Below are positions 141 to 39,787 of a stretch of 64,000 nt of DNA, in pieces. Where the stretch lies: assembly GCA_013265495.1 (NCBI GenBank), contig MU057776.1:124001-188000 (forward strand). The letters run 5' to 3'. Numbering within the stretch: position 1 is the stretch's first letter; the number at the start of each line of letters is the position of its first letter. A program made the translations under genes and the position numbers. Origin of the DNA: Vicugna vicugna. Its lineage: Eukaryota. The notes below the pieces were generated by a model, which was given only the letters and a program-made list of their open reading frames with translations, was not told the DNA's origin and did no database searches.

Positions 141-326
141 CTTCACAGAGTAGGCGAATGCCACGAAGCCCAGGCAGCACACGTTCAGGAAGAGGGTGTT
201 GAACAGGGACCAGACGATGTGGTCGGGCACGGAGGTCTCCGTGGGGATCTGGATCATGGTGGACATCACGGGGGCTGGGTTCTGGGGAACCCCCAGCACC
301 CCGACCTCATGCTCCTCCTTGTACAT
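141..326 (-). CDS. IFITM1: IFITM1-like paralogue A, coding exon 1 (62 codons); intron and exon 2 run off the left edge
   Basis: [23 protein letters not shown]...[30 protein letters not shown] is a CD225 domain start. It ends at the conserved AAG|GT donor (141/140). No IFITM3-type YEML extension. Exact IFITM1/2/3 orthology cannot be resolved. Confidence 0.93.
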
Positions 327-453: not shown

Positions 454-483
454 GGTTTCTATTTCTCGGTAGTTTCTATTTCC
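454..483 (-). promoter_or_regulatory. Tandem ISREs of gene A
   Basis: On the - strand, GGAAATAGAAACT (471-483) matches the classic IFITM1 ISRE; a second AGAAATAGAAACC lies at 454-466. About 130-160 nt upstream of the ATG. Confidence 0.9.
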
Positions 484-714
484 TGTTGTTTCTGAACTGC
501 TGAATTGTCTGGAAAATAGGAGGGTTGGACAACTAACTGGGTGCCTGGTAGGATTTTATGAGCCCTGTCCTTCCAAGGCGGGGCTGCTTTCCTCGAGGTC
601 CCGCTGGCAGCCTTCCTGGCTAGATGGAGGCCTGGTTTCCAGGCTGTCTGGGGAGAACACTTGAGCTAATTACCCATGAGATTATGATACAGGACTTTCT
701 TTTTCTTATTTTCT

Positions 715-2299: not shown

Positions 2300-3900
2300 C
2301 GTGGGAACTGTAAGTGGCAGCGCACAGGTTCCTACTCACATGGAGCCCGTGGTCTGCAGTCCTCATTTGTGGACGTCTGCTGGCCAGTCCTTCCCCACCC
2401 TCACACTCCACATTAGAAACTCTTGGTGTTTACCAGCCAGAGTGGGATTGGGTCTGTCTTAAAAACCAAACTGGGTCTAGAAATGAACTAGGTCCAATTT
2501 ACGCTGGCCTGGGTCCAGTGCCAGGCCTTGGGGGAGTAAAACCTTATGTGCAGACTGAGAGCTAGTAGGAATCCGCAAGTGAAAAAGAAGCCCCATAACC
2601 TGGTAGGAACAGGTTGGCCTCCTAACCTGAGGACTCCCGTGTTGGGATACGTTGGCCGTGGGATGGGTTATACTGACTCTGCGTCACCCACCAATCTCAA
2701 GGAAATTTTGGAGCAGTGAGAGGCACAGTGAGTCTGGCAGAACCTCTACCTAGCAGCACAGCCCTCGAGGAGTCCGTCTGGCTCCCAGGGTACCAAAGGC
2801 TCAGCTAAAAGAAAGCAGCTCGCCACCCCCTGGCATGACTGGCCAGTTTGTATCTGGGAGCCGTGGCCCCAGGAGCTGCAGAGGTTACAAAGCTGGCAAG
2901 GTCTCACCACAACCACCCAGAGTCACAGTGCCGCACATGAGGAATGTTGTAAATAGGTGTGCTCATTTAAGGAGTGGACTTGAAAGCAAAGTTTCCCAAA
3001 TCAAAGAAAGCAAACGGGATACCGATTTTTATTGGTATGTGGAAGCTTCCAAAAGGCTTCAAAATCCCAAAATACCTCCATTTAAAAATTAGTTACAAAA
3101 GGCTAATGAAACTGTAAAGACACAAGGTCATAATGAAAAGTCCACCAAACTATTAGCTTTGTAGCTAATGCAGCTCCGAGGCCCAGCATCTAAAATAAGA
3201 CCCCCGCGTCAGACTCTTCTAGGGACCTCATTAAAGCCTGGCCCACCGAGCCATGTCACCATTGGAATCAACTGGGACCCTGGAAAGAAGATGGTCCTCA
3301 AAGGGAATCTTTCAACATCAACCCAAATGCCTTCATATCTACCCCCAAAGGAGACCCCCAGTTCTCCTCCCAGAACTGATGGGACTCCGAGGGGTCTCTG
3401 GTAAACCGTTGTGTTATTCCCTTATACAGCCAAGGAAGCTAACAATAAAGTCAATGGAAAACTGGAGCCTGCAGAGAGGATCTTGGGAGAGCTGACAGAA
3501 GCCAGAGAGAGCTGAGAACTCTTACCGGAGTCAGCTGTCCCAAATCTCTGTCTATAGTGCCCAGCTGAGAGGGAAAATAAAACTTCACGTTGTTGCTTCC
3601 TTTCCAAACCAAACCCACTGGTTACTTATCCTTTCTCTACCAAGGAGAGCTACTGTCTTTTTTCTTGTCTCGTTTTGTGCCCTAAGACCACGGCTTGGTG
3701 TTCTGCCTGCCTGAGACATGCAGGCTGTCAGCTCCCTTGGGCTGTCTTTGAGGGTGACTCTGGATCTGGGGAAGGGAGTGACCTTTACACCTCTTTGAGG
3801 ACGCCACTTGTGTCCATGGACTTGTTTAATACTGTCAGAAATAGTTACTGTTTGTCCTGGCTGAAACCTGACAAGATATTTAAAAAGATTTAGTAACTCT
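2300..3900 (+). mobile_element. Deleted ERV internal fragment (leader/gag)
   Basis: 2620-3200 is recognisably homologous to the leader/gag of the provirus at ~51000-52240 (-), e.g. 'gctcatttaaggagtggacttgaaagcaaagtttcccaaatc' vs 'gttcatttcagaggtgcacttcagagtgaaggctcccaaatc'. Confidence 0.7.
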
Positions 3901-3901
3901 T

Positions 3902-4033
3902 ATGTCAATGAAAACTTACTCAGTTTATCTAAGAAAGAAATGGAAAATTTAACCTGAGCCAAATATGAGGATCATAACCCAGGAAGAGCATCTTAGAAAT
4001 CTCTGAGAATTGTTCTGCCCATTAGAAGTCAAG
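3902..4033 (-). mobile_element. ERV LTR fragment, interrupted by the L1
   Basis: Matches the LTR start at 57872-57990. A compatible LTR end lies at 11465-11537. Confidence 0.65.
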
Positions 4034-7000
4034 GTCAATTTCTGGCGTACAACGTAATGTTTCAGTCACACATATACATACATATATTCCTTTTCATATT
4101 CTTTTTCATTACAGGCCAATGTAAGATATTGAATAAATTTCTCTGTGCCACACAGAAGAAATTTGTTTGCTGTATATCTGTTTTATATATAGTAGTCAGT
4201 ATCTGCCAATCTCAAACTCCCAATTTATCCCTTCCCACCACCTTTACCCACTGGTAATCGTAAGTTTATTCTCTATGTCTGTGAGTCTGTTTCTGTTTTG
4301 CAAATAAGTTCATTTGTGTCTTCTTTCTTTTTAAAGATTCCACATATAAGTGATATCATATGGTATTTTTCTTTCTCTTTCTGGCTTACTTCTCTTAGAA
4401 TGACGATCTCCAGGTCCATCCTTGTTGCTGCAGATGGCACTCTTTCATTCGTTTTTATGGCTGAGTAGTATTCCATTGCATAAAGATATTCACATCTTCT
4501 TTATCCAGTCATCTGTCGATGGACATTTAGGCTGTTTCCATGTCTTGGCTATGGTAAATGGTGCTGCTGTGAATATTGGGGTGCACGTGTCTTTTTGAAT
4601 TATGGTTCCCTCTGGATATACGCCCAGGAGTGGGATTGCTGGGTCATAGGGTAAGTCTATTTTCAGTCTGTTGAGGAATCTCCACACTGTTTTCCATAAC
4701 AGCCGCACCAAACTGCATTCCCACAACAGTGCAGCAGGTTCCCTTTTCTCACGGCCTCTCCAGCATTTATCATTCACGGGCTTTGGAATGATGGGCATCC
4801 TGACTGGTGTGAGGTGGTACCGCATTGTAGTTTGGATTTGCATTACTCTAATGATTAGCAACACTGAGCATTTTTTCATGAGCCTGTTGGCCATTTGTAT
4901 GTCTTCACTGGGGAATTGCTTGTTTAGGTCTTCTGCCCATTTTTGGATTGGCTTGTTTGTTTTTTGGTTATTAAGTTGTATGATCTGTTTGTATGTTCTG
5001 GAAATTGAGCCCTTGTCAGTTGCGTCGTACGAAAATACGTTCTCCCATTCCGTAGGCTGTCTTTTCGTTTTGTTTTTAGTTTCCTTTGCTGTGCAAAAGC
5101 TTATAAGCTTAATTGGGTCCTATCTGTTTATTCTTGCTTTTATTTCTATTGCCTGGGTAGATGGCCCGAGGAGAACACTGCTGAGATCTGTGTCAGAGAA
5201 TGTTTTGCTGTGCTTTCTTCTGGGAGGTTTACAGTGTCTTGTCTTACGTTTAAGTCTTCAAGCCATTTTGAGTTTATTTTTGTGTATGGCGTGAGGGAGC
5301 GTTCTCACTTCATTGATTTACAAGTGGCTGTCCAGCTTTCCCAACGCCATTTGCTGAAGAGACTGTCTTTTCTGCACTGTATCTTCTTGTCTTCTTTGTC
5401 AAAGATTAGTTGACTGTGGGCGTGAGGGTTTGTCTCTGGGCTCTCTGATCTGTTCCATTGATCTGTGTGTCTGTTTTTGTGCCAATACCACACTCTTTTG
5501 ATTACTGTAGCTCTGTAGTATTGTCTGAAGTCTGGGAGGATTATTCCTCCAGCTTTGTTCTTTCTCTTCAATATTACTTTGACAATTCTGGGTCTTTAGT
5601 GATTTCATATAAATTTTAGGATTATTTGTTCTGGTTCTGTGAAAAATGTCCTGAATAATTTGATAGGGATCACATTACATCTGTAGATTGCTTTGGGTTG
5701 TTTTGCCATTTTAAACAATACTAATTCTTCCAACCCAAGAACATGGGATATCTTTCCACTTCTTTACGTCATATTTAATTTTCTTAGTCAATGTTTTGTA
5801 GTTCTCTGTGTGTAAGTCTTTACTTCCTTGGTCAGATTTATTCCTAAGTATTTTATTGTTTTGGATGCACTTTCAAAAAAGGGATTGTGTTTTTACTTTC
5901 CTTTTCTGATATTTCCTTGTTGGTGTAAAGAAATGCAACAGATTTCTGTATGTTAATCTTATATCCTGCTACATTGCCAAATGCTTTTACCAGCTCTAGT
6001 AGTTTTTGTGTGGAGCAATTAGGGTTTTCTATATATAGTATCAAGTCATCTGCATATAATGACAATTTTACCTCTTCTCTTCCAATTTGGGTCCCTTTCA
6101 TTTCTTTTTCTTGTCTAATTGCCATGGCTGGGATTTCCAAGACTATGTTGAATTGAAGTGGTGAGAGTGGGCGTCCATGTGTTGTTCTAGATTTTAGCAG
6201 GAAGGCTTTCAACTTTTCACCATTGAATAGTGTGCTGGCTGTAGGTTTGTCCTAAATAGCTTTTATTATGCTGAGATGGGTCGTTGGCGTCATAATATCA
6301 ATGTACACACACACCCCGTATGTGGAGAGAGCTGATGGCTAATCTAAAAGTTTATTAAACTACACAGGCTTATAAAGCAAAAGAGAACAATATGGAAAAT
6401 GTTTAACTATGGTTTGACATTTTATGACTCCCTAGACACACAGATTGTTTTAAGGTCAGGATCTTAAGATCCTTTGATATTTTTGATAGATTACACTCGT
6501 CATGGAGCCAGTGAGCCTTAAATCTTATCAGGGCGGAACATATAGGAAAATAGCTGCTTGACGACATTCTTTCTGACTCAGGCGGCTGTGCCTGTCTTAG
6601 GTTGCCCCCCGCTGGGGATCTTACCCGTCATTGGCTAACCAGCCTTCTCACCTCAGAGTCTGCAGCCTTTTATAACTTGTTTACCACTCCAGCCCAAGGC
6701 TCATTCCTTTGTTCACATGATCGGGGGGCTACATATGTTCCCTCAGTATAGAGTTACTTTGGTTAGAGTTTTTATCATAAGTCGGTGTTGAATTTTATCA
6801 AATGTTTTTTGTGCATCTATTGATATGATCAAGTGATTTTTGTCATTTCTTTTGTTGATGTGGTGTATCACATTGATTTATGTGTGTTGTACCATCCTTG
6901 TGTGCCTGGAATGAACCCAACTTGATCATGGTGTAGAATCTTTTTTATTTGTTGTTGGATTCTGTTTGCTAATATGTTTTGAGGATTTTTGCATCTTTGT

Positions 7001-10000
7001 TCATCAAGGATATTGGACTATAGTTTTCTTTTTTGATAGTAACTTTGTCTGGCTTTGGTATCAGGGTGATGGTGGCTCCATAGAATAAGTTTGGGAGTAT
7101 TCCGTCTTCTTCAGTCTTTGGAAGAGTTTGGGAAGGTTCGATATGAGCTCTTCTTTGTGTGTTTGATAGGATTCCCCAGTGGAGCCATCTGGTCCTGGAC
7201 TTTTGTTTGTAGGGAGGTGTTTATTGCTGATTCTACTTCACTTCTAGTGATTGGTCTGATTGGTCAAATAATCTATTTCTTCTTGATTCAGTTTTGGTGG
7301 ACTGTATGTTTCTAGAAACTTGTCCATTTCTTCTAAGTTGTCCAATTTATTGCCATTTATTTGTTCATAGTATTCTCTTATGATTTTTAAAATTTCTGTG
7401 GTATTGATTGTAATGTCTTCATTTTCATTTCTTATTTTGTTTATCTGTGTTCTCTCTCCCTTTTCTTTGGGGTGAGCCTGGTCAGAAGTTTGCCTATTTT
7501 GTTTATTCTTTCAAAAAGCCAACTCTTGGTTTGATTGATTTTTTCTATTTTTTTAATCTTTATTTTATTTCTTTACTCCCTGATCTTTATTATTTCTTTC
7601 CTTCTGCTGACTTCAGGTTTTGTTGGTTCTTCTTTTTCTAATTCTTTTAGGTGGTAGGTTAGGTTGTTTATTTGAGATTGTTCTTGTTTTTTGAGGAAGC
7701 CTATATTGCTACGAACTTCCCTCTTAGGACTGCTTTTGTTGCATCCCATAGATTTTGTGTGGTTGAGTTTTCATTGTCATTTATCTCAAGGTATTTTTAA
7801 ATTTCTTCTTTGAGTTCATCATAGACCCATTGGTTTTTTTAGTAGCATGTTGTTTAGTCTCCATGCTGTCATTTTTTTTTTCTCATTTGTTTTTCTGTGG
7901 TTGATTTCTAGTTTCATGCCATTGTGGTCAGAGAAGATGCTTGAAATAATTTCTATCCTCTTAAATTTGTTGAGGCTTCTTTTGTGCCTGAGTATGTGGT
8001 CTAGCCTAGAGAATGTTCCATGAGCACTTGAAAAAAAAATGTATATTCTGTTTTGGAGTGATGTAAAGTCCTTAAAATATTAACCAAGTTCAACTGTTCT
8101 ATTGTGTCATTTAGGATCTCCATTGTCTTATTGAGTTTCTGTCTGGAAGACATTTCCAATGATGTTAGTAAGGTGTTAAAATCTCCTACTATGAGTGTGT
8201 TCCCATCAGTTTCTTCCTTTATGTCTGTTAGTTTTTGTCTTATATATTTAGGTGCTCCTATACTGGGTACATACATGTGACCTAGTGTCACCTCCTCACC
8301 TGCACTGCCTCTCTGATCGTTGTGCAGTGCCCTACTTTGTCTCTCTCTATGGCCTTTGCTTTAAAGTCTATTTTGTCTGATATGGGTATTGCTGCTCTCA
8401 CTTTCTTGTCATTTCCATTTGCATGAAATATCTTCTTCTGTCCTCTCACTTTCAATTTATGTGTGTCCTTCACTCTAAAGTGGGTCTCTTGTAGGCAGCA
8501 TATTGTAGGCTTTTGTTTTTATTATCCAATCTGCTACTCTATGTCTTTTGATTGGAGCATTTAGTCCATTGGCATTTATAGTACTTACTGATAGATGTGT
8601 GTTTATTGCCATTTTGAACTTTGTTTTCCAGTTGACTGGTATTTCTTCTTTGTTCTTTCTTTTCCCTTCTGTTTTTCTTTTTGTGGTTTGATAATTTTCT
8701 TTTGCACTAGCTTGGTTTCTTTTTGGGTTTTATAACTTTATTGTATGCTTTTGATTTGTGCTTACCCTGTTTTTTTAAGTATGTTAACCCATTACTATAT
8801 CTGTTTGTTTTAGACTGGTAGTCATGTAGGCTCAAACACATCCTAAAAAGAATGAAGACTAAAAGAAAAAAAATATATTTCCTTGCTCCCCTCTCCCACT
8901 TTTATGATGTTGATGTCTTTTTTTTTTCAGCAACTTTATATTTATTCTCTTGCTGCTCACTGTAGTTATCACATTTCTGGTTATGGTTTTCTCATTTCTC
9001 TAGCTTCCTGCTTCTCCATTTAGAGTAGATCTTTTAATATTTCTTTTAGGATAGGTTTAGTATTTCTGAATTCTTTCAGTTTCTGCTTGTCTGTGGCATT
9101 CTTTATTTCTCCTTCTGCTCTAAAGGATAGTCCTGCCAGATGGAGTGTCCTAGGTTGCAGCTTTTCCTCATTCAAGACTTTGCCACTCCCTTCTGGCCTG
9201 CAGTGTTTGCGTAGAAAAATCAGCTGAAAGCCTTATGGGAGTTCCCGTGTAACTAACTCTTTGTTTTTCTCTTGCTGCCTTTAGAATCATTTCTTTATCT
9301 TTAACTTTGACCATCTTAATTATAGCATGTCTTGGTGTAGGTCTCTTTGGGTTTTTCTTATTTGAGATCTTCCTGTACTTGGATATCTGTTTCCTTCTTT
9401 AGGTTTGGAAAGTTTTCAGTCATGATTTCTTCAAATACCTCTTCAATCACTTTTTCTCTTTCTTCTCCTTCTGGGACCCCTATTATGTCAGGTTGGCATG
9501 CTTTATATTATCCCATAGGTCCCTTATATTGCTTTCAGTGGTTTTTGCTTGCTTTTCTATCTGCTATTCTGATTGGGTGATTTCTGTTATCCTGTCTTCT
9601 AAGCCACTTGTTCATTCCTCTGCATGGTCCAGTCTGCTTTTGACTGCCTTTAATTAGGCTTTTATCCCAGCCATTGAGTTTTCTGTTTTTAACTGGCTCC
9701 TCTTCATAGTTTCTGTTTCCTTTTCATAGTATTTTCTGTCTCTATTCATAGTCTCTTTTATTTCCTTCAGTGCTTTTATCAGCCCCTTTTTGAAATCAGG
9801 ATGTAGTACACTGTTGAGGTCTATCTCATTGTTCATTCTTTCAGGGGATTTCTCTTGTTCATTTAATTGGCAGAGGTTCCTCTGCTTCTTCATTTTACTT
9901 ATATCTCTCTGGCTCTGTGGATTTAGGAGCATCAGTTATCTACTGTGGTCTTGAAGGCAGTTTTATTTCTTGTATTTAAAGTGGGAGCATTCCCGTGTAG

Positions 10001-11460
10001 ACTGTGTGTGTCTGATAGTGTTGCTGTGATGGCTGTTCTTGGTACGGGTGGCTGCCACGTCTTTCTTCCGTGTGTGTCGGCTGTTGTCCCGTTGACTGGG
10101 GGTGTGGTTGGTGCTGTGTGATCAGGGCCTGCCCTCATTGTTGTTGTTGAGCGGGGCCTCCTTTCCCGTTCTGTGGTTGTCACAGCCTTGACAGGGTCTG
10201 GGTCTGCTCCTGTTGCTGGCATAGAGGCTTCTAGGCCTGTTTCTGAGCTGCAGTGTGTGGTCAGTAGGGTTGGAGTGCTTCCACTGGGAAGAAGAGTCTC
10301 TGAGTGTGCCTCCACAGAAGCTGGCCCCTGGGCAGTGCTCTCTGTGGAGTCATCTGTCATGTGTTATGTGGGCTTACAAAGTACTCTTTGTTGATGTTGC
10401 TTTTGTTCTTGCCTTAGTTGCAGGAATGTCGGCCACCTGCTCTGGTGTCCCCCAGGTTCTGAGCCCCAGGAACCACCAGTGCAGTCCACCAATGTCAGGC
10501 ACTAGGACCTGCCATAGACAGCATGCAGTCACATGCCTGAATCCGTGGTGCACCGCAGGGTCAGCACAGAGCACAGCCCCACCTCCACGTACATTATGTA
10601 CACAAGCCTGTTGTAAACACCCATACTCGCCCCCATTGTCAGCCAGAACTTTGCTCACTGCCTGTTCATCCCAGAGGTGTGGGTCAACAAAGGAACCTAT
10701 GGAACAAATTCACCCTCTCTGCCTGAGGCTGTAAAGAAATCTCAGTCCTGCCTGTGAAGTTGTAAGGCCCCTGGGTATGAATTAAGCTTGCAGCAGCAAT
10801 GGCTATGACTAAGCCCCACTTCTCTTCTCTGAGGATTCACCAACAATGGAGCCAAGCAGACAGTGGCTATGGCTTGGCTGCATTGTGCCCCTCTTCCCTA
10901 CGCACAGCAACAGTGGTGCTTTCTTATGGGGGTCCCAGGCTGTTCTGTTCTGCACACACCCCCAGCCAGGGTTCACATGGCCCTCTAGTTCCCTGAGGCT
11001 GCCTCTGTGCAGCAGGCCCCAGCCCTCTCCCTGGACTCATCACAGATCTCCGGCTTGTGCCTGCCAACCTGAGTCTAGGGCTAGAGATCACAGGGACCTC
11101 CGTGTCAGTTTCTCCTAGTTTTGTCTGCCAAGGGGCTGGGACTTTCTCCTCCAAGCCTCAGAACCTCCACTTCTGTCCCTGCTGATCTCCCAGTTGGAGA
11201 GGAGGCTTCCTAGTGTGAGGGTGCCTTTCTTCCTTTACTGCCCCCTCTCTGCAGAACTGGTCCTGCACCGATTTTCTTTTTCTTTTTCTCTCTTACCAAA
11301 TTTTATGCAAATCCTCCTGTATTTCTAAGCAGGAGACACTCTGCCAGAGCTCAGTAGATGATCTATGCGATTTGATGAGTTTGCAGATGTAATTCTTAGT
11401 GTATTTGTGGGAAAGGGTGAGCTGTGAGTCTCTCTACTCTGCCATCTTGGCACCTCCCTC
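4034..11460 (-). mobile_element. Near full-length decayed LINE-1 (~7 kb)
   Basis: ORF2 pieces: C-term 4273-4894 (MEYYSAIK, CWRG...[13 protein letters not shown]), 5305-5571 ([13 protein letters not shown]), RT 5853-6212 ([11 protein letters not shown]), endonuclease 8001-8473 (LIVGDFNT). ORF1 piece 9654-9932. The 5' end has a YY1-type CAAGATGGC near 11441-11449. Many stops and frameshifts; poly(A) end missing. Confidence 0.95.
6277..6733 (-). mobile_element. Solo LTR (ERV2-like layout) nested in L1 ORF2
   Basis: Interrupts the L1 motif 'tatgctgaga|tatgttccc'. On the - strand it starts TGTAGCCCC, with TATA-like (6370-6377) and AATAAA (6351-6356) close together. Class assignment is inference. 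Confidence 0.7.
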
Positions 11461-11464
11461 TCCA

Positions 11465-14400
11465 GAACTCAGTGCCTGGTGTCTTGACAGTCCAACATCC
11501 TTTGTTACTGATATGGCAGGTGACATTCTTTGTCCAAGTACCTCCTCTTTGTCATAAATTCAACCAATGTTTGGGAGGCATTTCATGATCAGTTTTGTCC
11601 TACAGCACTAGGAAGGCTCATTCCTAGATTTGGCAAAGATTCTGTTGATAGTCCATTCAATGTGTTAACTTTGGATCAGGCCCTGTTGATCACCTAAAAT
11701 TCTCTGGATCAGCTGTCTTACTAGTCCAAGAAATGTCCTCCTATTTTGCTTCTTCCCATATCTAGCTTCGCACTATTACAATTATTCTACATAGAGTTTT
11801 ATGTATGTGATCATCTGTCTCAAGACTTTTCATATCATTTTGTCCGAGGCCTAGTTACACATTTGGTAACAACAGTCTTCCAGAACATGCAAGATACAGG
11901 AAATACAGCCAGCAACATCAATAAGGGGCTAGTGCAACAGAAGGAGACACAACCCATAAATGATTTGTAACCAATGACAGCAAATTAAAACGATGATTAG
12001 TAAAATCTAGTTATAATCTGGTCACAATAAACCGTCAAGTTTAGAAGGGAACCAGCTGGAGAAGCCAAATTCTGGGGGGATCGGGCGGAGAGAGAAAGAA
12101 AAATGTCTCATCTTCGTTCACAGAGGTGTACTTTACCACTTGCTGTGCTCATACATAAGAGAAAAGATTTTTCTGGAAAACAAAGATTAAAAGCCAATAT
12201 ATTTCAGAAAAAGCCGTAAAATTACAAATCGTGTCTGTCAGTTCTCTCAGCCCCATGTAGTTAATTCCTTTCGACATGGATGACTTCGTCACGTCTCCCT
12301 TAAAGCCTTGTGATTTCTTACCCAGTTCAGTGATATGACCTAATAACTATCAGAAACTTACACTTGTCAGAAAGTCCTTTTTGTGAATCTTCTTGAAGAT
12401 CTTCATTTTATAAAAGCATCAGAGTAAAACAATGATTATAAATGACAAGACAAAATGACATGGTTAAAGATCTGATTACAATGCGATTGACAAGAAACAT
12501 GGCTATTTCTGTGACATACGACATTTTAAGATCATAGTTAGAATTATGACTGATAACATTATACCAGGGCAATCAGATTGTTTAGGAATTCCATCTTAAT
12601 TTTAGAATATTTATATTAAAGACATTTTCCCATAAAATATACACCTAAGGTTTATCTCCACTCACTTGACAATGCTTCTCAAGTAACTTACCATAGCAGA
12701 AAGCCTAATTAGTTTAACATTTCTCTCTGATTTGCCTCAGGGTTTCTTTGAAGCAAGCACTCTAGAGTTAACTGGAGGTCAAAAGAACTTCAATTAGGAT
12801 TTTGTATGTAACCACTTTTTATGGTTAACCTCTTAAACATACTAATTTTTATAAACTTTTATCTCAATGCTATCAACTTTTATACCTTAAACTTTCGTTT
12901 CCATTAAAACCCTGTCCACAAGTCTTGGTCTTACAGAGAGTCATAGAAATTTTCCTTACTTTTCCTCAGTTTTTATTCAGACCATTTTATCTATTTTGTG
13001 TAAGATGCTCTCGGGCCCCCCAGAGAGGGGCTGAGCCAGAGCCTCAGGCCCTCTCGTCAATCCTTTAACTTGATTAATTGTTGATTAACTGTTGCCCTAA
13101 GTATCTGTTGATCAGTGTAATTTTCTTCCCGTCTTTTAAATAAATAAACAAACATTTTAAACTGGGGTGAATGGATTGGACTTTTTTGGGGCCTCACAAT
13201 GTTGGGGACCAATTGTGGTCCCTCTGGCACACCCAACCTCAGGTAGTGCTGTATCAAACCTTCGATTTAATCCCATTAATGTCCATTTTATTTATCCCAT
13301 TGTTAAATAACTGTCTAGAGTTTTTTTACCCTTTTGGGATGAGTCCCTTTAAAATTTCCACCTTGTTCGGAAAAGTATCTAGACTTTCCTTTCAGTATTT
13401 TTTTCTTATTTACCTGTTAATTAACCTAATTAACATTAATTATTCAAGTGTTTTTATTAGCATCTGTAAGAACTGTTGTGGGATTCAGCGCACCGGTGTG
13501 CGGGTAGTAAAGGAATTTACCAAAGACAAAGGACGAAGGTAGAAAAGGGATTCTTTAGCTGCGCTGCCGGATGGCAGCGGGGCACAGACAGCAGGGCTGT
13601 GTGCCCCGGGGTCCGTATGCCCCGGGGGTCTGTGTGCCCCGGGGGTCTGTTGCTGAGGTCCTTCACAGGAGGGGGACCTTTTACTGCTGTGCTGATGTGA
13701 CATCGGGCACGAGGGGTCGGGGGTGTGAGGCCGGCCGGTGCACATGTCTCTGACTGGCTGGGGTGGAGGTAACAGGGAAGGGAGTGGGGGTGGGGTGAGA
13801 GGGTGGGGCTCCCGGACTCGGGCAGAGGCTGTGACCGGCAGGCTCCCAGCCGCTGCCTAGAGCAGACCATTCTGTAGGGTGGTGCGTTCAGCTGAGGCAG
13901 GTACGTGCTAGGAAAGGAATGTTCTTTGTTATCTTTAAAGGGCAGCAGCCTGACGCCTGGGGGCCTAGGAACAGGAATCTGCCAGGTGTCTGTGGACCCA
14001 CAAGACCCACTGAGGGGAAGGGGAGACCACAAATAAGTCTTCCCAAATAGGTTTTTTTGTTTGTTTGTTTTAAACTAAAGGAGTTGTTAGATTAATATAT
14101 ACACACAAATATCTTTCTCCACCTTCTAATTTGTTTCCCCACCACCACCACGTAGGTACCAATAAACCAGCTGCCTATGATGAGGCCTCTCTGAAAATTT
14201 ACATTAAGAGTTTTTCCAATTTGAAGGATCCATCATCTGGACATTAATTAGATATATCTTCCTAGTGACTCAAACCAGTAAGATGCAAAAGGCACGAGAG
14301 TGTGAAGGATGTAGCCTTCACAAGATCTAGAAAGTTTATCCCCCAAAATAGTGTAAGCAAGTAAAGGCCTTCATGGCCCAGTCTGAGGTAGTGAAGGTTA

Positions 14401-19545: not shown

Positions 19546-21548
19546 CAGACAGAAGTTTATCTCATGGAAGTGAGGTGGGGAATCAGTCAAACATAAAATC
19601 GCTGGGGGGACAGAGAAGGGTCTTCTAAAGACAGAGAGTTTTGTTGTGACTTTCGCTGTGGTGGATGGATTGAGTTGAGTGATTTTTTCCTTTGTCCCAT
19701 CTGTCACCGTTGCACAGATCAGCTACTCCTAAGTCAACAGGAAAACCACACGACGGGAAGAATTCCTGTGGTGTCTCCAGATGGGAAAGCAGTGGGCACC
19801 CAGGACGCGGCATCTGAGGAGCGGCTGCATTAGGGGAGCAGCTCGGTCCCGACTGGGGCGGGGCAGCAGGGGCCGCTGACCCCAAGAGCCTCGGACAGGA
19901 CTGGCGGGGCCTGGGGGAGACCAAGGGGCAAGCCTGGGAGGGACCAGGTGCCACGACAACCCCTGCTCTCACCCCTGCCCCGTCTGCGCACCCAGGACTG
20001 AGGACCGGGGCAGCACTCGTGGGGACGGGGCGTCCCGGCAGCACGCCCAGTCAGGCTGGACTTGGTGCGGAAAGGGCTTGTGCTGTGGACTAGCACACAG
20101 TGGCCTCCATCAGTGGTGAGGGAAATGAGGGCCAACATTTGAACTGCTCCAACCTTGAAGGCAGTGGGGTGCTTCAGCCACCCTCCTGGTGGGATCTGAT
20201 CCCAGTGGGAAGGAGGACCCGCCGGGATCACAGTCCACGAGGGATGGAGCAGCGGTACCTCGGAGGGAGGGAGGGAAGGCCTGGGCTTCTGTTGCTCCCC
20301 GACACTCCTGCCCACGTGTGGAGCTCAGGGCATCCTGGCTGTGTGTTCTCGGGGAGTAGGTGGGGACTCATATTGCCAAATTTGGGGGTGCTTCCCATTC
20401 TGTCTGGGCCTTGTGTGTGGTGAGGCCTTTCAGATGGCTGCTCTCTGGCTCTTGGAACCTCCCTGCTCGACCAGTTCTGCCTCACCTACGCACTCACCCC
20501 ACTGACCTCCCCTCTGAGTCACAGATCCCAATCAGTAAATGCCTGCCCACCCCCGGCCCCGGCTGGTGGCTGCTCTGACCTGCAGATCAGAACTATCTCC
20601 TCGTGATGGTTTATCAAAGGGGCGGTGGGGGCACGCCCCTCTGCTGGCGTCCCTGGTCACCGGTCAGCCAGCCTGACCTCTCAGCCCTGTAACTGGTAAC
20701 CTCTTCCCCACCGCCCGGCCCCGTAGTGACCACTGACACGTCCCGACCGCCGTCTGCCGCACACGGTGGGGTGTCGCTCCAGGGCCTTGCCTCAGACACA
20801 CAAGATCCCTGTCTGTTAAACCGCCGATGATTCTGTCGCTGACTCCGGGCTCTTCCTTCCGTCCTGAGGCGGCCCTGCGGGGCGCGGCCCCGCACCTTGT
20901 CGTGAAGCTGGCGCCTGGCCTCCTCTCCTCCTGAGCTCTGGCTGAGCTGATGTGACCAGACACCACGGGGCCTGGGTGTGAACTTGCTCTTCTCCCTGGG
21001 GCTCCAGCACCAGCAGCCAAGCGCCCCCTGTGGTCCTGAGTGGAGGTGGAGACCTCAGGCTGGCACTGGGGAGCACGCAGCCCAGACGCCCCAGCTCTGC
21101 TGGGCTCGGCTGAGCGGCCACGCGGGGCAGTCAGGGCCCAGAGGGCGGAAGGCAGACCTAGTGCGGTCGGTTTCTGCCGACCCTCCCGCTGGCTGTCCTC
21201 CCAGGTGCACCCAAAGTCTGGAAAATTAGCTAAAAGGAAAAGACACTTAGCTGTATACTTTAATAAGTTTAAAATGGTAAATTTTATGTTACATACACTT
21301 TACCACATTAAAAAAATTTTAAGTTGATTCTAGCACCTTTGACAGTTTATTCATTGATTTTGTGGGGGGAGACTTTCAGAGCCCTTTTACCTGTGTGATT
21401 TAATTGTAACGACAGCTGCGCTTCACAACGGGCATCAAAACTCCTTGGATCTTGAGGGTCAGCCCCTAAAAGGTGGTGTGTCCGCAGCAGGACTTCTGCC
21501 TGGAAAGTGCATTTTACTCAAAGAGCAGCACGTGAAGATCTTTGTGTT

Positions 21549-22196
21549 CCCCGCAGCCCGGGCGGGAGCAGGGCACAGGCACTGGGAAGCCCCGGTGGTG
21601 ACTCGGGGTCAGGACAGCCTTGCCTGTTTGACCTGGGATGTTCCACTTCCATCCTCAAAGGCCCAGCTGCTCGGGGCACCCCAGCCTCCCTCTGGGTGGG
21701 CCTGACACAACCCTCCTGTGGCAGACAGTTCCGCCGCCAGCTCCCCAGGCAGCCCGTGTCCAGCGTTAGAGGTAGGCAGGAAAGACCACCTCCACCAGAT
21801 CCCTGTCCACACGCCCAGCCCCGGGGCCGGGCTGGTGTCCGTCTGGCACAGCAGCTGCGCTTGGACTCCCACGGGCTGATCGGCCGCCATCCACCGCGCC
21901 CGACAGGACTGTCTGGGTCTGGGCTCAGACTGGTCAGTGACATGGAGGAGTGTGTCGGGGGCACCCCGCTCCCACTGGGCTTTGAGGTGGCGCGATTGCT
22001 GCTCCCTCCCAGGGTGGGATATGGTTCTGGTATTTCCCCTGCTAGGGTGGGTGTTGGGGCGCAATTCCAGACGTCCCCACCAGCCAGCCCCACGACCCTG
22101 GCTCTCACCCAGAAGCCACGGGCCCAGGGTGCGGACGTGCAGACCTCCCCGGACGTGTCCTCCCGTCCCACCCCCGCAGTGGAGATGCCAGCTGGA
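21549..22196 (+). repeat. 648-bp direct duplication, copy 1
   Basis: Near-identical to 34398-35045. Confidence 0.95.
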
Positions 22197-26825: not shown

Positions 26826-26843
26826 CACCCCTATATAGGGGTG
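26826..26843. promoter_or_regulatory. 18-bp palindrome CACCCCTATATAGGGGTG containing a CArG box and TATA-like core, upstream of B
   Basis: CCTATATAGG fits CC(A/T)6GG. Mirrored at 32650-32667 for gene C. Confidence 0.55.
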
Positions 26844-27121
26844 GGGGCAGGTGAGCAGGACCTGTAGCTCCTTCAGAGCCCTCAGGCTCCCTCCCCACTT
26901 CCCTAGTGTAACTTGACACTCAGTGGTTCAACGGGCCTCCTATGACCAGCCCATTTCCAATTCCCCAAAGACCAGGAAGAGGAAATTTCAGAGGATTCAA
27001 AACATCTGGGGAAACGGAGCGTCCCTTGAGCACCGTCCAGGCGTCGGACCACAGCTGCTCACTCCGCTGCTCAGGAAACCCACTTCTGAGACACCAGCAC
27101 CTGCTTCTCTCAACTCCTGAG

Positions 27122-27307
27122 ATGCTCAAAGAGGAGAAGCACGTGGGGGTGCTGGGAGCTCCCAATTACCCGGCACCCGTGCCCCCCACCGTGATCAACA
27201 TCCGCAGTGAGACCTCCGTGCCCGACCACATCGTCTGGTCCCTGTTCAACAGCCTCTTCCTGAACGTGTGCTGCCTGGGCTTCGTGGCATTCGCCTACTC
27301 TGTGAAG
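27122..27307 (+). CDS. IFITM1: IFITM1-like paralogue B, exon 1
   Basis: [19 protein letters not shown]...[35 protein letters not shown] donor; 478-nt intron 27308-27785. Confidence 0.95.
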
Positions 27308-27785
27308 GTGGGAGGGTGCCTGGGGGAAGGAGCGTGAGCCCGGCAAGGCCCCTGCCCAGACGGCACGTGGGCTGTGGGAGGCCTTGTGCATATAGTTCTG
27401 TGTGTGCGTGCGTGTGTGTGCGTGTGGGCGAGCGCACGCCCAGGCGTGCAGGTCGTGATGAGGTTGCAGGGGTGCGTGGGGATGACCAGCGTCAGCCTTT
27501 TGCCCCGTGGTGGGGCGGGCGGCCAGTAGGAGGCCAGAGCAGAGGGACGGTGAGCCCTGGGGCCTCCTGGACAGGCTGAGAGTCTGTGAGGAGGGAGATC
27601 CAGGCCCCAGGAGGGGAGGGAGGGCCCGCTGGGCACGGTCGTGCTCAGGCTGTGGGGGGACGGGCAGGGGTGGGTCCCCAATGGGTGAATGGACACCGGG
27701 GGACCAGCAGGGAGGACCTGAGTCTTGGCACCTGGCCTTCACCCGGCCCGGCCCCAGGTCCCCCTCACCATCTCTCCTCCCCCAG

Positions 27786-27977
27786 TCCAGGGACCGGAAG
27801 ATGGTGGGCGACATCCTTGGGGCCCAGAGCTACGCCTCCACCGCCAAGTGCCTGAACGTCTGCGCCCTGGTGCTGGGCATCCTTCTGACCATCGTGTTCA
27901 TCATTATTTTTGCCACTGGCTCCCTGATGATTTTCCAGGCGATTTCACAGATTGTAAAGGAGTATGGAGGCTACTAG
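27786..27977 (+). CDS. IFITM1: IFITM1-like paralogue B, exon 2 (spliced protein 125 aa)
   Basis: CAG acceptor, then [63 protein letters not shown]. Confidence 0.95.
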
Positions 27978-28033
27978 TAGCTGCCCGCGGCCACCCCTTC
28001 ACAGCAGTTTATACACACCCCCGTCTACAGCTG

Positions 28034-28039
28034 AATAAA
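28034..28039 (+). terminator. Poly(A) signal of gene B
   Basis: AATAAA 56 nt after the stop, followed by GT-rich sequence. Confidence 0.85.
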
Positions 28040-31373: not shown

Positions 31374-31383
31374 ACAAGTGCAC

Positions 31384-31519: not shown

Positions 31520-31711
31520 TTAGTAGCCTCTATTCTTCTTCATAAACTCTGACGTGATATGGTTGGCCATAGGGTATAAAAATACCAGAAGAACGATGAC
31601 TCCAATGGTCCCGAGGATGCCCAGCACCAGGGCACAGACGTTCAGGCACTTGGCAGTGGCGGCATGGCTCTGGGCCCCAAGGACGTCGCCCACCATCTTC
31701 CGGTCCCTGGA
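31520..31711 (-). CDS. IFITM1: IFITM1-like paralogue C, exon 2 (spliced protein 125 aa)
   Basis: [68 protein letters not shown]1-type RGY end; CAG acceptor. Confidence 0.95.
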
Positions 31712-32185: not shown

Positions 32186-32371
32186 CTTCACAGAGTAGGC
32201 GAATGCCACGAAGCCCAGGCAGCACACGTTCAGGAAGAGGCTGTTGAACAGGGACCAGACGATGTGGTCGGGCACGGAGGTCTCACTGCGGATGTTGATC
32301 ACGGTGGGGGGCACGGGTGCCGGGTAATTGGGAGCTCCCAGCACCCCCACGTGCTTCTCCTCTTTGAGCAT
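32186..32371 (-). CDS. IFITM1: IFITM1-like paralogue C, exon 1
   Basis: Same translation as B exon 1; 474-nt intron 31712-32185. Confidence 0.95.
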
Positions 32372-34397
32372 CTCAGGAGTTGAGAGAAGCAGGTGCTGGT
32401 GTCTCAGAAGTGGGTTTCCTGAGCAGCGGAGTGAGCAGCTGTGGTCCGACGCCTGGACGGTGCTCAAGGGACGCTCCGTTTCCCCAGATGTTTTGAATCC
32501 TCTGAAATTTCCTCTTCCTGGTCTTTGGGGAATTGGAAATGGGCTGGTCATAGGAGGCCCGTTGAACCACTGAGTGTCAAGTTACACTAGGGAAGTGGGG
32601 AGGGAGCCTGAGGGCTCTGAAGGAGCTACAGGTCCTGCTCAGCTGCCCCCACCCCTATATAGGGGTGTGGTCAGGCCCTGGGGGCTCCTCCCCAGCCTGG
32701 GGGTCTGGGGACTCAAGCCTGCTGCAGGCCCTCCCTGCCCCCACGCAGGGCCCTGCCAGCCCCTCACAGCCCCCACACCCCAGCCCCCAGAGGGAGCCGC
32801 ACCCCAGAGCCCGCACCGCAGCTGCACACCCTCCCCTTGACGCGCACTGTGCCGTCCCGGTTCTGAGTCCGAGCTCCAGGCGGGCTTGGGGGCCTGCCTG
32901 GCTGCAGGCGGGCACCCAGAAGCCCGTGTTGCCTGCCCCGGGGGAGCCTCCCATGATCTCCCAAGGGCTCCCACGAGCAGGACACTGGGAGCTGCTGACC
33001 CGAGGAGGCAGCCGTGCTGGGAGCCCTTTGGCAGCAGCTTCGGGGCCCAGGGCCTGCGTGCTTGTGCGGCCCACCTCCGCTGCCTCCCTCCTTCCCGCCA
33101 CCCCTGGCATTTCACGCAGGAACTGGGTGTTGGTGGGACAGCTCCTTGGCTGTGGGCCCTATGCCCCCTTCTCAGGGATGGACGGGGTCAGCTCAGCTCA
33201 GGCCAGGACTCAGCTCTCCAGAAACTAACGGATGGCAGCGTCCTGGGTGCCGCCTGCGTCCTTACCACCTGGGTGGAGGAGCGGGTGGGATGCGATGGTC
33301 CAGGCCGGACTGTCCTGCTAGGACCTACGGGCCTCACCCAAGCTGGGTCCAGTGGGCTCAGGGTGGCCAGTGGCCCCCATACCCGCCCAGAAGGCGGGCC
33401 TCTGGCCCTGGGGCCTCCTCCAGCTGTCCAGGTCCTGACCACTTCCGCCGCTGCCCTGGGCTCCCTCACAGGCGTCAGCTGCCCCGCCCTGAGCACCTCT
33501 GGGCCCACGGACCCAGGCGTTCTCTGTGACCCGCTCCTCGTTTCAAGTCCTCCTCATCTTGAGACACCTGGTGTGGCCTGTTCTCCTGCTGGGCCACACC
33601 GACCCAGAAGGCCGCCCTGATCGCCTGGGCGGAGGTGCACGCGTGGGCAGTCTGAGGCCTGGGCCTGGCCCCTGGTCTGGGGTGAGGTCGGCGGGGGTGG
33701 GGCGGTCGCCCGCAGGCCCTGACGCGCTGCCCCTGCCTGCGTCTGGGATGATGCTCCAGCCGAGGCTGTTCCCTCCAGCAGCGCGACATCCGTGTTTGTG
33801 GCCGGTGCGGGGCCGTAGCTCTGCCCTGGGCAGCCTTCCACCAGGTGGCGGACCCAGCGGACAGAAGAGGCCTCCAGTGCAGAGGTGACCATGGGCCGTG
33901 GGGAATTTAATCGCCACAGCTGTGCTTTGGGAAATGCTGACTTTTCTCCTACATAATTGATATGATTCATAGTTTAGCCGATTTAATTTTCAGTATGGCT
34001 GTGCTTCGAATCAGCTCACAACATTGCCGTAAGTGGGCACCTGTGCCCAAAACCTGGATTTTATCCTGAAAGTAGGGTGTTCATGTCTCACCCTTCCTTC
34101 CTGGTCCCCTGCCTCCATCCCAGCCCCTGGTCCTCACCTCCCACCTTCTCCCATCAGCTCCTGGAAGGTGGCCACAACCTTTGTCCCCTCTGTTCTGTTA
34201 GCGTCCAGTTCTCCCCACAGAGCGAGTGGCCGGTGTCCCGCTCCGGGTCTGCCCACGGGAACCCTCCCCTCCGGGTGTTCAGGCCACCCTTCATGAGCTG
34301 GGGCGCCAGCCCCATCTGTGTCCAGCTCTCTCCCTCACTCTGGCAAAACCAAGCTGGGAATTCTTCCCATCCTTCCCATCTTCTGGTCCCCAGGGTC

Positions 34398-35045
34398 CCC
34401 CGCAGCCCGGGCGGGAGCAGGGCACAGGCACTGGGAAGCCCCGGTGGTGACTCAGGGTCAGGACAGCCTTGCCTGTTTGACCTGGGATGTTCCACTTCCA
34501 TCCTCAAAGGCCCAGCTGCTCGGGGCACCCCAGCCTCCCTCTGGGTGGGCCTGACACAACCCTCCTGTGGCAGACAGTTCCGCCGCCAGCTCCCCAGGCA
34601 GCCCGTGTCCAGCGTTAGAGGTAGGCAGGAAAGACCACCTCCACCAGATCCCTGTCCACACGCCCAGCCCCGGGGCCGGGCTGGTGTCCGTCTGGCACAG
34701 CAGCTGCGCTTGGACTCCCACGGGCTGATCGGCCGCCATCCACCGCGCCCGACAGGACTGTCTGGGTCTGGGCTCAGACTGGTCAGTGACATGGAGGAGT
34801 GTGTCGGGGGCACCCCGCTCCCACTGGGCTTTGAGGTGGCGCGATTGCTGCTCCCTCCCAGGGTGGGATATGGTTCTGGTATTTCCCCTGCTAGGGTGGG
34901 TGTTGGGGCGCAATTCCAGACGTCCCCACCAGCCAGCCCCACGACCCTGGCTCTCACCCAGAAGCCACGGGCCCAGGGTGCGGACGTGCAGACCTCCCCG
35001 GACGTGTCCTCCCGTCCCACCCCCGCAGTGGAGATGCCAGCTGGA
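34398..35045 (+). repeat. 648-bp direct duplication, copy 2
   Basis: Near-identical to 21549-22196. Confidence 0.95.
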
Positions 35046-37893: not shown

Positions 37894-38048
37894 GTCTTAG
37901 GGTTGTGGGATGCAGGCTTGGGCGCCAGTGAAGGAGGGCTGGAAAGTGCACTTATAATGCCGAGCCCTGACCATTGTTGGGGTATCCCCGGATGCTGTAG
38001 GGCGGTCCCTCGTAGAGCTCAGCCCCCATCTCAGTCGGAAGTTCTGCT

Positions 38049-38057
38049 TTCTCAGAA
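38049..38057. promoter_or_regulatory. GAS (STAT) motif TTCTCAGAA in the D promoter
   Basis: Fits TTCN3GAA, at the position homologous to the ISRE pair of gene A. Confidence 0.5.
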
Positions 38058-38175
38058 ATTTCCAGTTCCTGTTATTTTGTAAATGGGTGAATTGGCTGTC
38101 CACTCAGGATGGGTGGGGGAGTGCTGCAGTCTAAGCGATGGCTTCCTGTCCCAGGCATTCGAGTCAGGGCCTGTT

Positions 38176-39787
38176 TAGGGGTGTGGTCAGGGCCTGGGGG
38201 CTCCTCCCCAGCCTGGGGGTCTGGGGACCCAAGCCTGCTGCAGGCCCTCCCTGCCCCCACGCAGGGCCCTGCCAGCCCCTCACAGCCCCCACACCCCAGC
38301 CCCCAGAGGGAGCCGCGCCCCGGAGCCCGCACCGCAGCTGCACACCCTCCCCTTGACGCGCACTGTGCCGTCCCGGTTCTGAGTCCGAGCTCCAGGCGGG
38401 CTTGGGGGCCTGCCTGGCTGCAGGCGGGCACCCAGAAGCCCGTGTTGCCTGCCCCGGGGGAGCCTCCCATGATCTCCCAAGGGCTCCCACGAGCAGGACA
38501 CTGGGAGCTGCTGACCCGAGGAGGCAGCCGTGCTGGGAGCCCTTTGGCAGCAGCTTCGGGGCCCAGGGCCTGCGTGCTTGTGCGGCCCACCTCCGCTGCC
38601 TCCCTCCTTCCCGCCACCCCTGGCATTTCACGCAGGAACTGGGTGTTGGTGGGACAGCTCCTTGGCTGTGGGCCCTATGCCCCCTTCTCAGGGATGGACG
38701 GGGTCAGCTCAGCTCAGGCCAGGACTCAGCTCTCNNNNNNNNNNNNNNNNNNNNNNNNNNNNNNNNNNNNNNNNNNNNNNNNNNNNNNNNNNNNNNNNNN
38801 NNNNNNNNNNNNNNNNNNNNNNNNNNNNNNNNNNNNNNNNNNNNNNNNNNNNNNNNNNNNNNNNNNNNNNNNNNNNNNNNNNNNNNNNNNNNNNNNNNNN
38901 NNNNNNNNNNNNNNNNNNNNNNNNNNNNNNNNNNNNNNNNNNNNNNNNNNNNNNNNNNNNNNNNNNNNNNNNNNNNNNNNNNNNNNNNNNNNNNNNNNNN
39001 NNNNNNNNNNNNNNNNNNNNNNNNNNNNNNNNNNNNNNNNNNNNNNNNNNNNNNNNNNNNNNNNNNNNNNNNNNNNNNNNNNNNNNNNNNNNNNNNNNNN
39101 NNNNNNNNNNNNNNNNNNNNNNNNNNNNNNNNNNNNNNNNNNNNNNNNNNNNNNNNNNNNNNNNNNNNNNNNNNNNNNNNNNNNNNNNNNNNNNNNNNNN
39201 NNNNNNNNNNNNNNNNNNNNNNNNNNNNNNNNNNNNNNNNNNNNNNNNNNNNNNNNNNNNNNNNNNNNNNNNNNNNNNNNNNNNNNNNNNNNNNNNNNNN
39301 NNNNNNNNNNNNNNNNNNNNNNNNNNNNNNNNNNNNNNNNNNNNNNNNNNNNNNNNNNNNNNNNNNNNNNNNNNNNNNCCTGGGGGCTCCTCCCCAGCCT
39401 GGGGGTCTGGGGACCCAAGCCTGCTGCAGGCCCTCCCTGCCCCCACGCAGGGCCCTGCCAGCCCCTCACAGCCCCCACACCCCAGCCCCCAGAGGGAGCA
39501 GCGCCCCGGAGCCCGCACCGCAGCTGCACACCCTCCCCTTGACGCGCACTGTGCCGTCCCGGTTCTGAGTCCGAGCTCCAGGCGGGCTTGGGGGCCTGCC
39601 TGGCTGCAGGCGGGCACCCAGAAGCCCGTGTTGCCTGCCCCGGGGGAGCCTCCCATGATCTCCCAAGGGCTCCCACGAGCAGGACACTGGGAGCTGCTGA
39701 CCCGAGGAGGCAGCCGTGGTGGGAGCCCTTTGGCAGCAGCTTCGGGGCCCAGGGCCTGCGTGCTTGTGCGGCCCCACCTCCGCTGCT
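38176..39787 (+). repeat. Two copies of the C upstream module flanking N gap 38735-39378
   Basis: 38176-38734 matches 32661-33217; 39379-39787 matches 38193-38598. Confidence 0.9.

What the first reader, a model, noticed from the sequence alone, without database searches (positions are those of the whole stretch)
454..483. Only gene A keeps ISREs; the homologous site has decayed in B, C and D
Seen, at equivalent distance from the ATG: A aacaGGAAATAGAAACTaccgAGAAATAGAAACC; B/C accaGGAAGAGGAAATTtcagAGGATTCAAAACA (26975; 32518); D aacaGGAACTGGAAATTTCTGAGAAAGCAGAACT (38069). Both GAAANNGAAA repeats are broken outside A. Inference: B, C and D may be uncoupled from type I IFN/ISGF3 control.
Basis: partly seen in the sequence, partly recalled or inferred. 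Interest (0 to 1): 0.7.

Follow-up and report, generated by a model that had tools for sequence, protein, structure and literature searches.

The report
Camelid IFITM promoters in scrambled assembly
In this camelid cluster of antiviral IFITM genes only one visible promoter keeps intact interferon-response elements, but two of the four apparent genes look like one gene's front half assembled twice and the IFITM3 promoter is missing, so the claim that the others have escaped interferon control is not established.

Summary
The motif observation is correct. Gene A has two perfect ISREs 17 nt apart; the homologous slots in B, C and D are broken. The conclusion is weaker than it looks. (1) B and C share one 5' half (1 difference in 615 nt). 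Their second exons are identical to those of the annotated alpaca 146-aa IFITM3 (63/63) and of the alpaca A gene (63/63). None of 15 camelid database proteins has the window's B or C pairing, and IFITM3's exon 1 is absent. The window is most likely mis-joined across shared repeats, and IFITM3's promoter cannot be judged. (2) D lost the ISREs but keeps, in the same register, a GAS identical to the human IFITM1 GAS; A and B lost that GAS. (3) Human IFITM1-3 share a distal enhancer, and multi-ISRE promoters can drive cluster neighbours, so motif loss is not uncoupling. No expression or read-level data were obtained. Uneven ISRE content among IFITM paralogues is already described in tammar. Verdict: a real but ordinary paralogue difference, inflated by a probable assembly artefact.

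The parts
471..483 (-). Gene A ISRE 1 (GGAAATAGAAACT), -157 from ATG; identical to the human IFITM1 ISRE
   Evidence: PMC5985295 Table 1; PMC3424830
454..466 (-). Gene A ISRE 2 (AGAAATAGAAACC), -140; one 17-nt unit after ISRE 1
   Evidence: 17-bp tandem period at 455-493
463..471 (-). Gene A broken GAS slot (TACCGAGAA, 1 mismatch to TTCNNNGAA) at the junction of the two units
141..326 (-). Gene A coding exon 1 (IFITM1-like, no N-terminal extension); identical 62/62 to alpaca XP_072826802, whose exon 2 is the window's 'C' exon 2
21546..22196 (+). Repeat R, copy 1 (651 bp, 2 mismatches to copy 2); right boundary of the A-bearing segment
25933..26692 (.). 760-N assembly gap inside the shared upstream block, just before 'B'
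26975..27004 (+). B-type decayed element: ISRE 1 slot GGAAGAGGAAATT, GAS slot TTCAGAGGA (1 mismatch), ISRE 2 slot AGGATTCAAAACA
27122..27307 (+). 'B' exon 1: B-type 5' half, identical 62/62 to alpaca XP_072826803; probably placed here instead of the IFITM3 5' half
27786..27977 (+). 'B' exon 2: identical 63/63 to exon 2 of the alpaca 146-aa IFITM3 (XP_072826800)
31520..31711 (-). 'C' exon 2: identical 63/63 to exon 2 of the alpaca A gene (XP_072826802)
32186..32371 (-). 'C' exon 1: second placement of the B-type 5' half
32489..32518 (-). B-type decayed element, same letters as at 26975
32654..33990 (-). Shared upstream block U; further pieces at 25666-25932, 26693-26839, 38170-38734 and 39379-39798
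34395..35045 (+). Repeat R, copy 2; right boundary of the B-bearing segment
36892..37893 (-). Gene D (114 aa, two exons), matching alpaca XP_072826804 and Camelus orthologues
37894..37956 (-). Dead remnant of an IFITM3-type N-terminal extension in frame before D's ATG: no start codon, stop at the position of the endocytic tyrosine
   Evidence: 10 of 21 residues identical to hippopotamus IFITM3
38040..38069 (-). Gene D element: ISRE 1 slot GGAACTGGAAATT and ISRE 2 slot AGAAAGCAGAACT broken
38049..38057 (-). Gene D intact GAS (TTCTGAGAA); the 10-mer equals the human IFITM1 GAS and occurs once in the window
   Evidence: PMC5985295 Table 1
38735..39378 (.). 644-N assembly gap with 420 nt repeated on both sides (98.3%)

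Best explanation
This is the immune IFITM cluster of a South American camelid. The species carries four genes: a 146-aa IFITM3, an IFITM1-like gene A, a short B gene and an older paralogue D. The window shows them mis-joined. Two segments that each run from the shared exon-1/intron core to the same 651-bp repeat (A's 5' half and B's 5' half) are swapped, and IFITM3's 5' half is replaced by a second copy of B's. So there are three visible promoter types (A, B, D) and one missing (IFITM3). All derive from one composite element built of 17-nt units with a GAS across the junction. A kept both ISREs and lost the GAS: a direct ISGF3/IRF target. D lost the ISREs and kept the GAS: probably responsive to STAT homodimers (IFN-gamma, IL-6-family cytokines, weakly type I IFN). 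B lost both. Expected behaviour: A strongly induced by type I IFN; B and D less so and mainly through shared distal elements or A's tandem-ISRE promoter, not fully uncoupled. Shown: motifs, homology, exon identities, repeats. Inferred: the mis-join, the true order, all binding and induction.
For: Exon pairing: alpaca IFITM3 exon 2 = window B exon 2 (63/63); alpaca A gene = window A exon 1 (62/62) + window C exon 2 (63/63); alpaca B gene = window B/C exon 1 (62/62) + an exon 2 absent from the window. The same four pairings carry accessions from alpaca, dromedary, Bactrian and wild camel. Of 15 camelid proteins, 3 have a B-type 5' half and all 3 have the other tail; 0 of 15 match the window's B or C pairing. 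B and C 5' halves differ at 1 of 615 nt and abut an N gap; A, B and C differ at only 2 positions between nt 88 and 326 after the ATG; R copies differ at 2 of 651 nt. The re-routed order puts A and IFITM3 tail to tail, as human IFITM1 (+) and IFITM3 (-) are (strands in PMC8602369 supplement). GAS slot in register: D 0 mismatches, A and B 1 each; background 0.16 GAS per kb. The human IFITM1 GAS starts 29 nt after the ISRE start (13 + 16 linker), D's 12 nt after, a difference of one 17-nt unit. Poor assembly of this locus is reported for chicken and gaps for pig and bat.
Against: No reads or long contigs were laid, so the mis-join is not shown directly. Database models are themselves unstable: 2 of 15 camelid proteins are other chimeras (A 5' half with IFITM3's or B's tail), which could reflect real rearrangement. 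Inverted and direct near-identical cores also permit true inversions and gene conversion. Orthologous promoters from other camelids or artiodactyls could not be fetched, so neither the age nor the fixation of the B and D states is tested. A GAS 9-mer is weak evidence of function. The exon-1 tree's bootstrap did not settle.
Confidence: 0.68

Rival explanations
1. One reading: the B and D genes are truly uncoupled from type I IFN and are constitutive or tissue-specific IFITMs.
For: Both ISRE slots are broken in the core, and no other 0-1 mismatch 13-mer lies within the readable 2 kb upstream. The ISRE is described as essential for IFN induction. Human paralogues already differ widely in one data set: log2 fold 0.35 (IFITM2), 0.90 (IFITM1), 1.77 (IFITM3) after IFN-alpha in K562. 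D's exon 1 groups with equid IFITM1-like proteins (99/94, rough tree), so it may have diverged long ago.
Against: D keeps a consensus GAS. Human IFITM1-3 are co-regulated by an enhancer about 35 kb away (reviews). Many IFN-induced genes in clusters have their nearest ISGF3 peak in another gene's promoter (36 of 73). No expression data.
Confidence: 0.25
2. The motif differences have no regulatory consequence: A's tandem-ISRE promoter (or the unseen IFITM3 promoter, or a distal enhancer) works as a hub and induces all cluster genes about equally.
For: 80% of induced Epromoters have two or more ISREs, and deleting the OAS3 promoter cut OAS1 and OAS2 induction. The human IFITM1 promoter fragment was scored inactive before and active after IFN-alpha as an enhancer in both STARR-seq replicates. 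One more perfect ISRE lies at 52944.
Against: The human IFITM1 fragment was not classed as an Epromoter in that table (ratio 1.75, type NA). Human paralogues sharing an enhancer are still induced unequally. The 52944 site has no support beyond its letters.
Confidence: 0.2
3. The window is a true haplotype: recombination and gene conversion between the near-identical cores replaced IFITM3's 5' half by B's and shuffled the exon pairings, leaving A as the only ISRE-driven gene.
For: The cores are homogenised and lie in both orientations. B and C differ at a few sites in the flank and intron. Other exon pairings exist in databases (2 of 15).
Against: It needs at least two independent events that each coincide with an assembly-graph ambiguity and with N gaps. 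The window's exons are identical to the alpaca proteins in the standard pairing. One of the two database chimeras was replaced by the standard pairing in the next version of the same accession (XP_031303925.1.2).
Confidence: 0.07

Closest known systems
Human IFITM1 promoter (composite ISRE + GAS; PMC5985295 Table 1, passages read)
   Same: A's ISRE 1 and D's GAS are letter-for-letter the two human elements; the 17-nt periodicity fits the published 16-nt linker.
   Different: In the camelid the two elements no longer sit in one visible promoter: A has two ISREs and a broken GAS, D the GAS only, B neither.
Tammar wallaby IFITM cluster (PMC3424830, passages read)
   Same: Only some paralogues (IFITMA1, A2) carry the AGGAAATAGAAA[C/G]T ISRE; others have none; inferred from sequence alone.
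   Different: Here the ISRE-less promoters are still alignable to the ISRE-bearing one, so decay in place can be seen, and one retains a GAS.
Epromoter-driven ISG clusters (OAS1-3, IFIT, ISG15; PMC8602369, abstract, passages and supplement rows read) and the human IFITM E2-3 enhancer (seen only through two citing papers)
   Same: One promoter with two high-quality ISREs amid clustered paralogues within 100 kb.
   Different: No enhancer activity or chromatin contact is known for the camelid A promoter.
Mis-assembled IFITM loci (chicken, PMC5450142, abstract only; pig and bat gaps, PMC4631062, passages)
   Same: Near-identical paralogue cores, gaps, wrong or missing gene models.
   Different: Here the likely error can be traced to two named repeat pairs by comparison with annotated proteins.

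Membership tests
Immune-related IFITM (CD225) gene | CD225 domain | tested here: met
   All listed relatives of B and D exon 1 carry PF04505; a profile of fetched IFITMs finds 4 first exons and 3 second exons and nothing else below E 4.
Immune-related IFITM (CD225) gene | Two coding exons with one intron at the conserved position | tested here: met
   B, C, D: GT-AG introns of 478, 474 and 657 nt after ...YSVK. A's exon 2 is outside the window.
IFITM3 proper | 21-residue N-terminal extension with the tyrosine sorting motif | tested here: not met
   None of the four window genes has an in-frame upstream Met; D holds a dead remnant with a stop; the camelid IFITM3 extension is not found intact in the window.
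ISRE-driven (ISGF3) promoter: gene A | Consensus ISRE near the start | tested here: met
   Two exact RGAAANNGAAACY at -157 and -140.
ISRE-driven (ISGF3) promoter: B/C and D | Consensus ISRE near the start | tested here: not met
   2 mismatches in the first 13-mer, 2-4 in the second. The first core passes a published one-mismatch rule, but such cores occur 1.3 times per 700 bp here by background.
ISRE-driven (ISGF3) promoter: any gene | IRF9/STAT2 binding and induction by type I IFN | not testable with these tools
   No raw-read RNA run or IFN-labelled library among 24 runs listed; no camelid IFITM expression paper found.
GAS-driven promoter: gene D | TTCNNNGAA near the start | tested here: met
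   TTCTGAGAA at -164, same 10-mer as human IFITM1.
GAS-driven promoter: gene D | STAT homodimer binding and cytokine induction | not testable with these tools
   No binding or expression data.
IFN-induced Epromoter: gene A | Two or more high-quality ISREs | tested here: met
   criterion
IFN-induced Epromoter: gene A | Enhancer activity on neighbouring genes | not testable with these tools
   Needs deletion or STARR-type assay.
Assembly mis-join | Gene models disagree with independent assemblies and breakpoints fall in repeats or gaps | tested here: met
   0 of 15 database proteins share the B or C pairing; breakpoints lie in the shared core, R and U.
Assembly mis-join | Reads or long contigs contradict the joins; halved depth over the doubled part | not tested
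   No read-level result was obtained.

The most novel reading that the evidence does not exclude
The window is a real South American camelid haplotype in which gene conversion overwrote the 5' half of IFITM3 with the ISRE-less B type. Such animals would have no full-length, endosome-targeted IFITM3 and a single ISRE-driven IFITM, while the ancestral ISRE+GAS element is split between A (type I IFN) and D (STAT homodimers).
Probability: 0.07. Interest if true: 0.7.

Novelty: new member of a known kind. Interest (0 to 1): 0.25.

Why it matters
If the split holds (A: ISRE only; D: GAS only; B: neither), it is a compact, testable case of regulatory division of labour among antiviral paralogues in livestock that carry respiratory viruses, and it tells which IFITM to follow after type I versus type II interferon. 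The practical point is a warning: primers or reporters designed from this assembly would target gene models ('B', 'C') that probably do not exist and would miss IFITM3. Uneven ISRE content among IFITM paralogues is itself not new.

Tried and rejected
Whole-genome search: no genome is held for this window. Outgroup promoters from host DNA in metagenome contigs: 533 pattern matches, 0 confirmed. Sequencing runs: 24 listed, all kept as contigs, none labelled as interferon-treated; 14 hold at least 83% of the words of 26693-31720, which shows the pieces exist in three coded organisms but says nothing on how they are joined; rows with small shares were not used. No read-level result was obtained. 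Earlier scan notes: 0 near this place, 0 for five words, 5 for 'IFITM', none on mammals. Three papers were not held, so nothing of them was seen: the mouse fragilis paper and the E2-3 enhancer paper. The tandem GAAANNGAAA runs at 9719-9725 and 11282-11288 lie in purine-rich, repeat-like DNA far from any start and were not treated as ISREs. The TATAA at -63 in D was rejected as a TATA box because it sits where the old IFITM3-type start codon stood (inference). NF-kB-like letters (GGAAATTTC in B/C/D, GGGATACCCC in D) and a GAGGAA in B/C were seen but not given weight: short, untested. The perfect ISRE at 52944 cannot be equated with human E2-3, whose sequence I did not see. My first re-ordering of the cluster was dropped for the one in entry 3, which needs fewer changes and puts A and B on one strand, as the Bactrian A+B isoform requires. 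The exon-2 tree has long-branch warnings and was used only for tail types. No structure or complex prediction was run; it does not bear on a promoter question.

Full report
What is there. The window holds four IFITM first exons (A 141-326 minus, B 27122-27307 plus, C 32186-32371 minus, D 37714-37893 minus) and three second exons; a profile search of all six frames finds no other CD225 exon. The exons are identical or nearly so to Vicugna pacos proteins and slightly less so to Camelus proteins, so the source is a South American camelid (inference). There are two N gaps, of 760 and 644 bases.

The observation. The quoted strings are in place. The four sites are homologous: the 200 nt before each ATG align well above 300 shuffles (A-B 96.5, A-D 74.5, B-D 66.5; shuffle maxima 50, 55, 49.5), with the elements in one gap-free block. 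They start at -157 (A), -147 (B, C) and -176 (D). A has two exact RGAAANNGAAACY matches 17 nt apart, 2 of only 4 in the window. B, C and D have 1 core mismatch plus a C-to-T change in the first slot and 2-3 core mismatches in the second. A one-mismatch core would pass the rule used for bat IFITM (PMC11801718, passages), but such cores occur about 1.3 times per 700 bp here, so that rule does not discriminate. A's first ISRE is the human IFITM1 ISRE, and a one-base variant is reported in two tammar genes (PMC3424830, passages; PMC5985295, passages). The intact state is therefore old, and 'decay' is a fair word.

B and C are probably not two genes. Their 5' halves differ at 1 of 615 nt, and 188 nt before the gap are identical to C's flank. 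Named camelid proteins fall into four pairings of first and second exon, each with accessions from alpaca and Camelus species: a 146-aa IFITM3, an A gene, a B gene and D. The window's B exon 2 is IFITM3's (63/63); its C exon 2 is the A gene's (63/63); the B gene's own exon 2 and IFITM3's exon 1 are not in the window. Of 15 camelid proteins examined, 3 have a B-type 5' half, all with the B tail; 0 of 15 have the window's B or C pairing; 2 of 15 are other chimeras, one of them replaced in a later version of its accession. One search listed 120 of 190 hits, best first.

How the mis-join would arise (inferred). A, B and C differ at only 2 positions from nt 88 to nt 326 after the ATG, and the B and C introns are almost identical. 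A 651-bp direct repeat R with 2 mismatches lies at 21546 and 34395. The segment carrying A's 5' half and the segment carrying B's 5' half both run from the shared core to R, so they are interchangeable paths for an assembler; swapping them restores the A and B pairings. The slot before IFITM3's exon 2 lies between the shared upstream block U and the core, as B's 5' half does, so the two would form a bubble and one would be dropped. The re-routed order is B(-), IFITM3(+), A(-), D(-). Flipped, this gives D(+), A(+), IFITM3(-), like human IFITM2(+), IFITM1(+), IFITM3(-) (strands from the PMC8602369 supplement). It also puts A upstream of B on one strand, which would allow the annotated Bactrian isoform joining A's exon 1 to B's exon 2. 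This order is a model; no reads or long contigs were laid, and true inversion or conversion between such repeats is possible. Trouble with this locus is reported in chicken (PMC5450142, abstract) and in pig and bat (PMC4631062, passages).

In register across the junction of the two 17-nt units sits a GAS slot: TTCTGAGAA in D (exact), TACCGAGAA in A and TTCAGAGGA in B/C (1 mismatch each). D's 10-mer is the human IFITM1 GAS and occurs once in the window; TTCNNNGAA occurs 0.16 times per kb. In human IFITM1 the GAS starts 29 nt after the ISRE start; in D 12 nt, one 17-nt unit less. The simplest reading is an ancestral ISRE+GAS composite now split: A ISREs, D GAS, B neither. D may be an old paralogue: its exon 1 groups with equid IFITM1-like proteins (99/94) in a 32-protein tree whose bootstrap had not settled, and it carries a dead IFITM3-type N-terminal extension.

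Does motif loss mean uncoupling? Not by itself. Two papers report, citing work I could not read, an IFN-responsive enhancer about 35 kb from the human cluster that regulates IFITM1-3 (PMC5985295; PMC10778886, passages). In K562 cells, 36 of 73 clustered induced genes had their nearest ISGF3 peak in another promoter, 80% of induced Epromoters had two or more ISREs, and deleting the OAS3 promoter cut OAS1 and OAS2 induction (PMC8602369). In that study's table the human IFITM1 promoter fragment became active as an enhancer after IFN-alpha but was not classed as an Epromoter, and the three paralogues rose unequally (log2 0.35, 0.90, 1.77). So reduced rather than absent induction of B and D is the most likely outcome. 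Nothing here measures it: the 24 runs listed were all contigs, none labelled as IFN-treated.

Comparison with what is known. Reviews state that human IFITM1-3 each have an ISRE and differ on which have a GAS (PMC9716219; PMC6338058; passages). In tammar only 2 paralogues have the ISRE, and mouse Ifitm1-3 and -6 are said to have it. Ten searches of the open library (listings and abstract starts) showed no paper on camelid IFITM promoters or paralogue-specific induction; subscription journals and bioRxiv supplements are not covered, and camelid RNA-seq supplements I did not open could hold such data. PMC4761146, PMC6396086 and PMC9208254 were read as passages only.

Verdict. Observation confirmed; interpretation partly supported. 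The ISRE contrast between A and the B-type and D promoters is real and apparently undescribed for camelids, but it is a known kind of paralogue difference. The headline 'only A' rests on an assembly that most likely lacks the IFITM3 promoter and counts one promoter twice. Interest 0.25.

Noticed in passing
window 37894-37956 (-): The 21 codons before D's ATG are a dead IFITM3-type N-terminal extension (10 of 21 identical to hippopotamus IFITM3), without a start codon and with a stop where the sorting tyrosine would be.
   Followed up: partly
window 36892-37893 (-): D's exon 1 groups with horse and donkey IFITM1-like proteins rather than with other camelid IFITMs (99/94, rough tree), and its protein has a short C-tail (114 aa); it may be an old lineage.
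   Followed up: partly
window 36095-36429 (-): The long C-terminal tail of 210-218 aa Camelus D isoforms maps here (96% over 74 aa), so D's 3' flank is linked to D in Camelus too.
   Followed up: partly
window 21546-22196 and 34395-35045: A 651-bp direct repeat with only 2 mismatches and unrelated flanks.
   Followed up: yes
window 38193-38612 and 39379-39798: 420 nt repeated on both sides of the 644-N gap (98.3%), a common sign of a scaffolding duplication.
   Followed up: partly
window 52944-52956 (+); GAS-like sites at 46402, 54879, 59776, 62014: One more perfect ISRE 13-mer and several GAS-like 9-mers in the gene-free right part; possible distal elements or chance.
   Followed up: no
window 695-706 (-): A third, one-mismatch ISRE-like site (AGAAAAAGAAAGT) at -380 of gene A.
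   Followed up: no
window 25202-25381; 31215-31371; 13597-13650; 46619-46662: Minisatellites: 17 bp x 10.6 just before block U, 53 bp x 3 after C's exon 2, and two short 17-bp arrays.
   Followed up: no
window about 3900-10000: AT-skewed stretch with broken reading frames resembling LINE-1 ORF2 (label recalled, not tested) upstream of gene A.
   Followed up: no
database proteins P0045 and P0139: Camelus models that join A's exon 1 to IFITM3's or B's exon 2; mis-joins, read-through splicing or real variation.
   Followed up: partly
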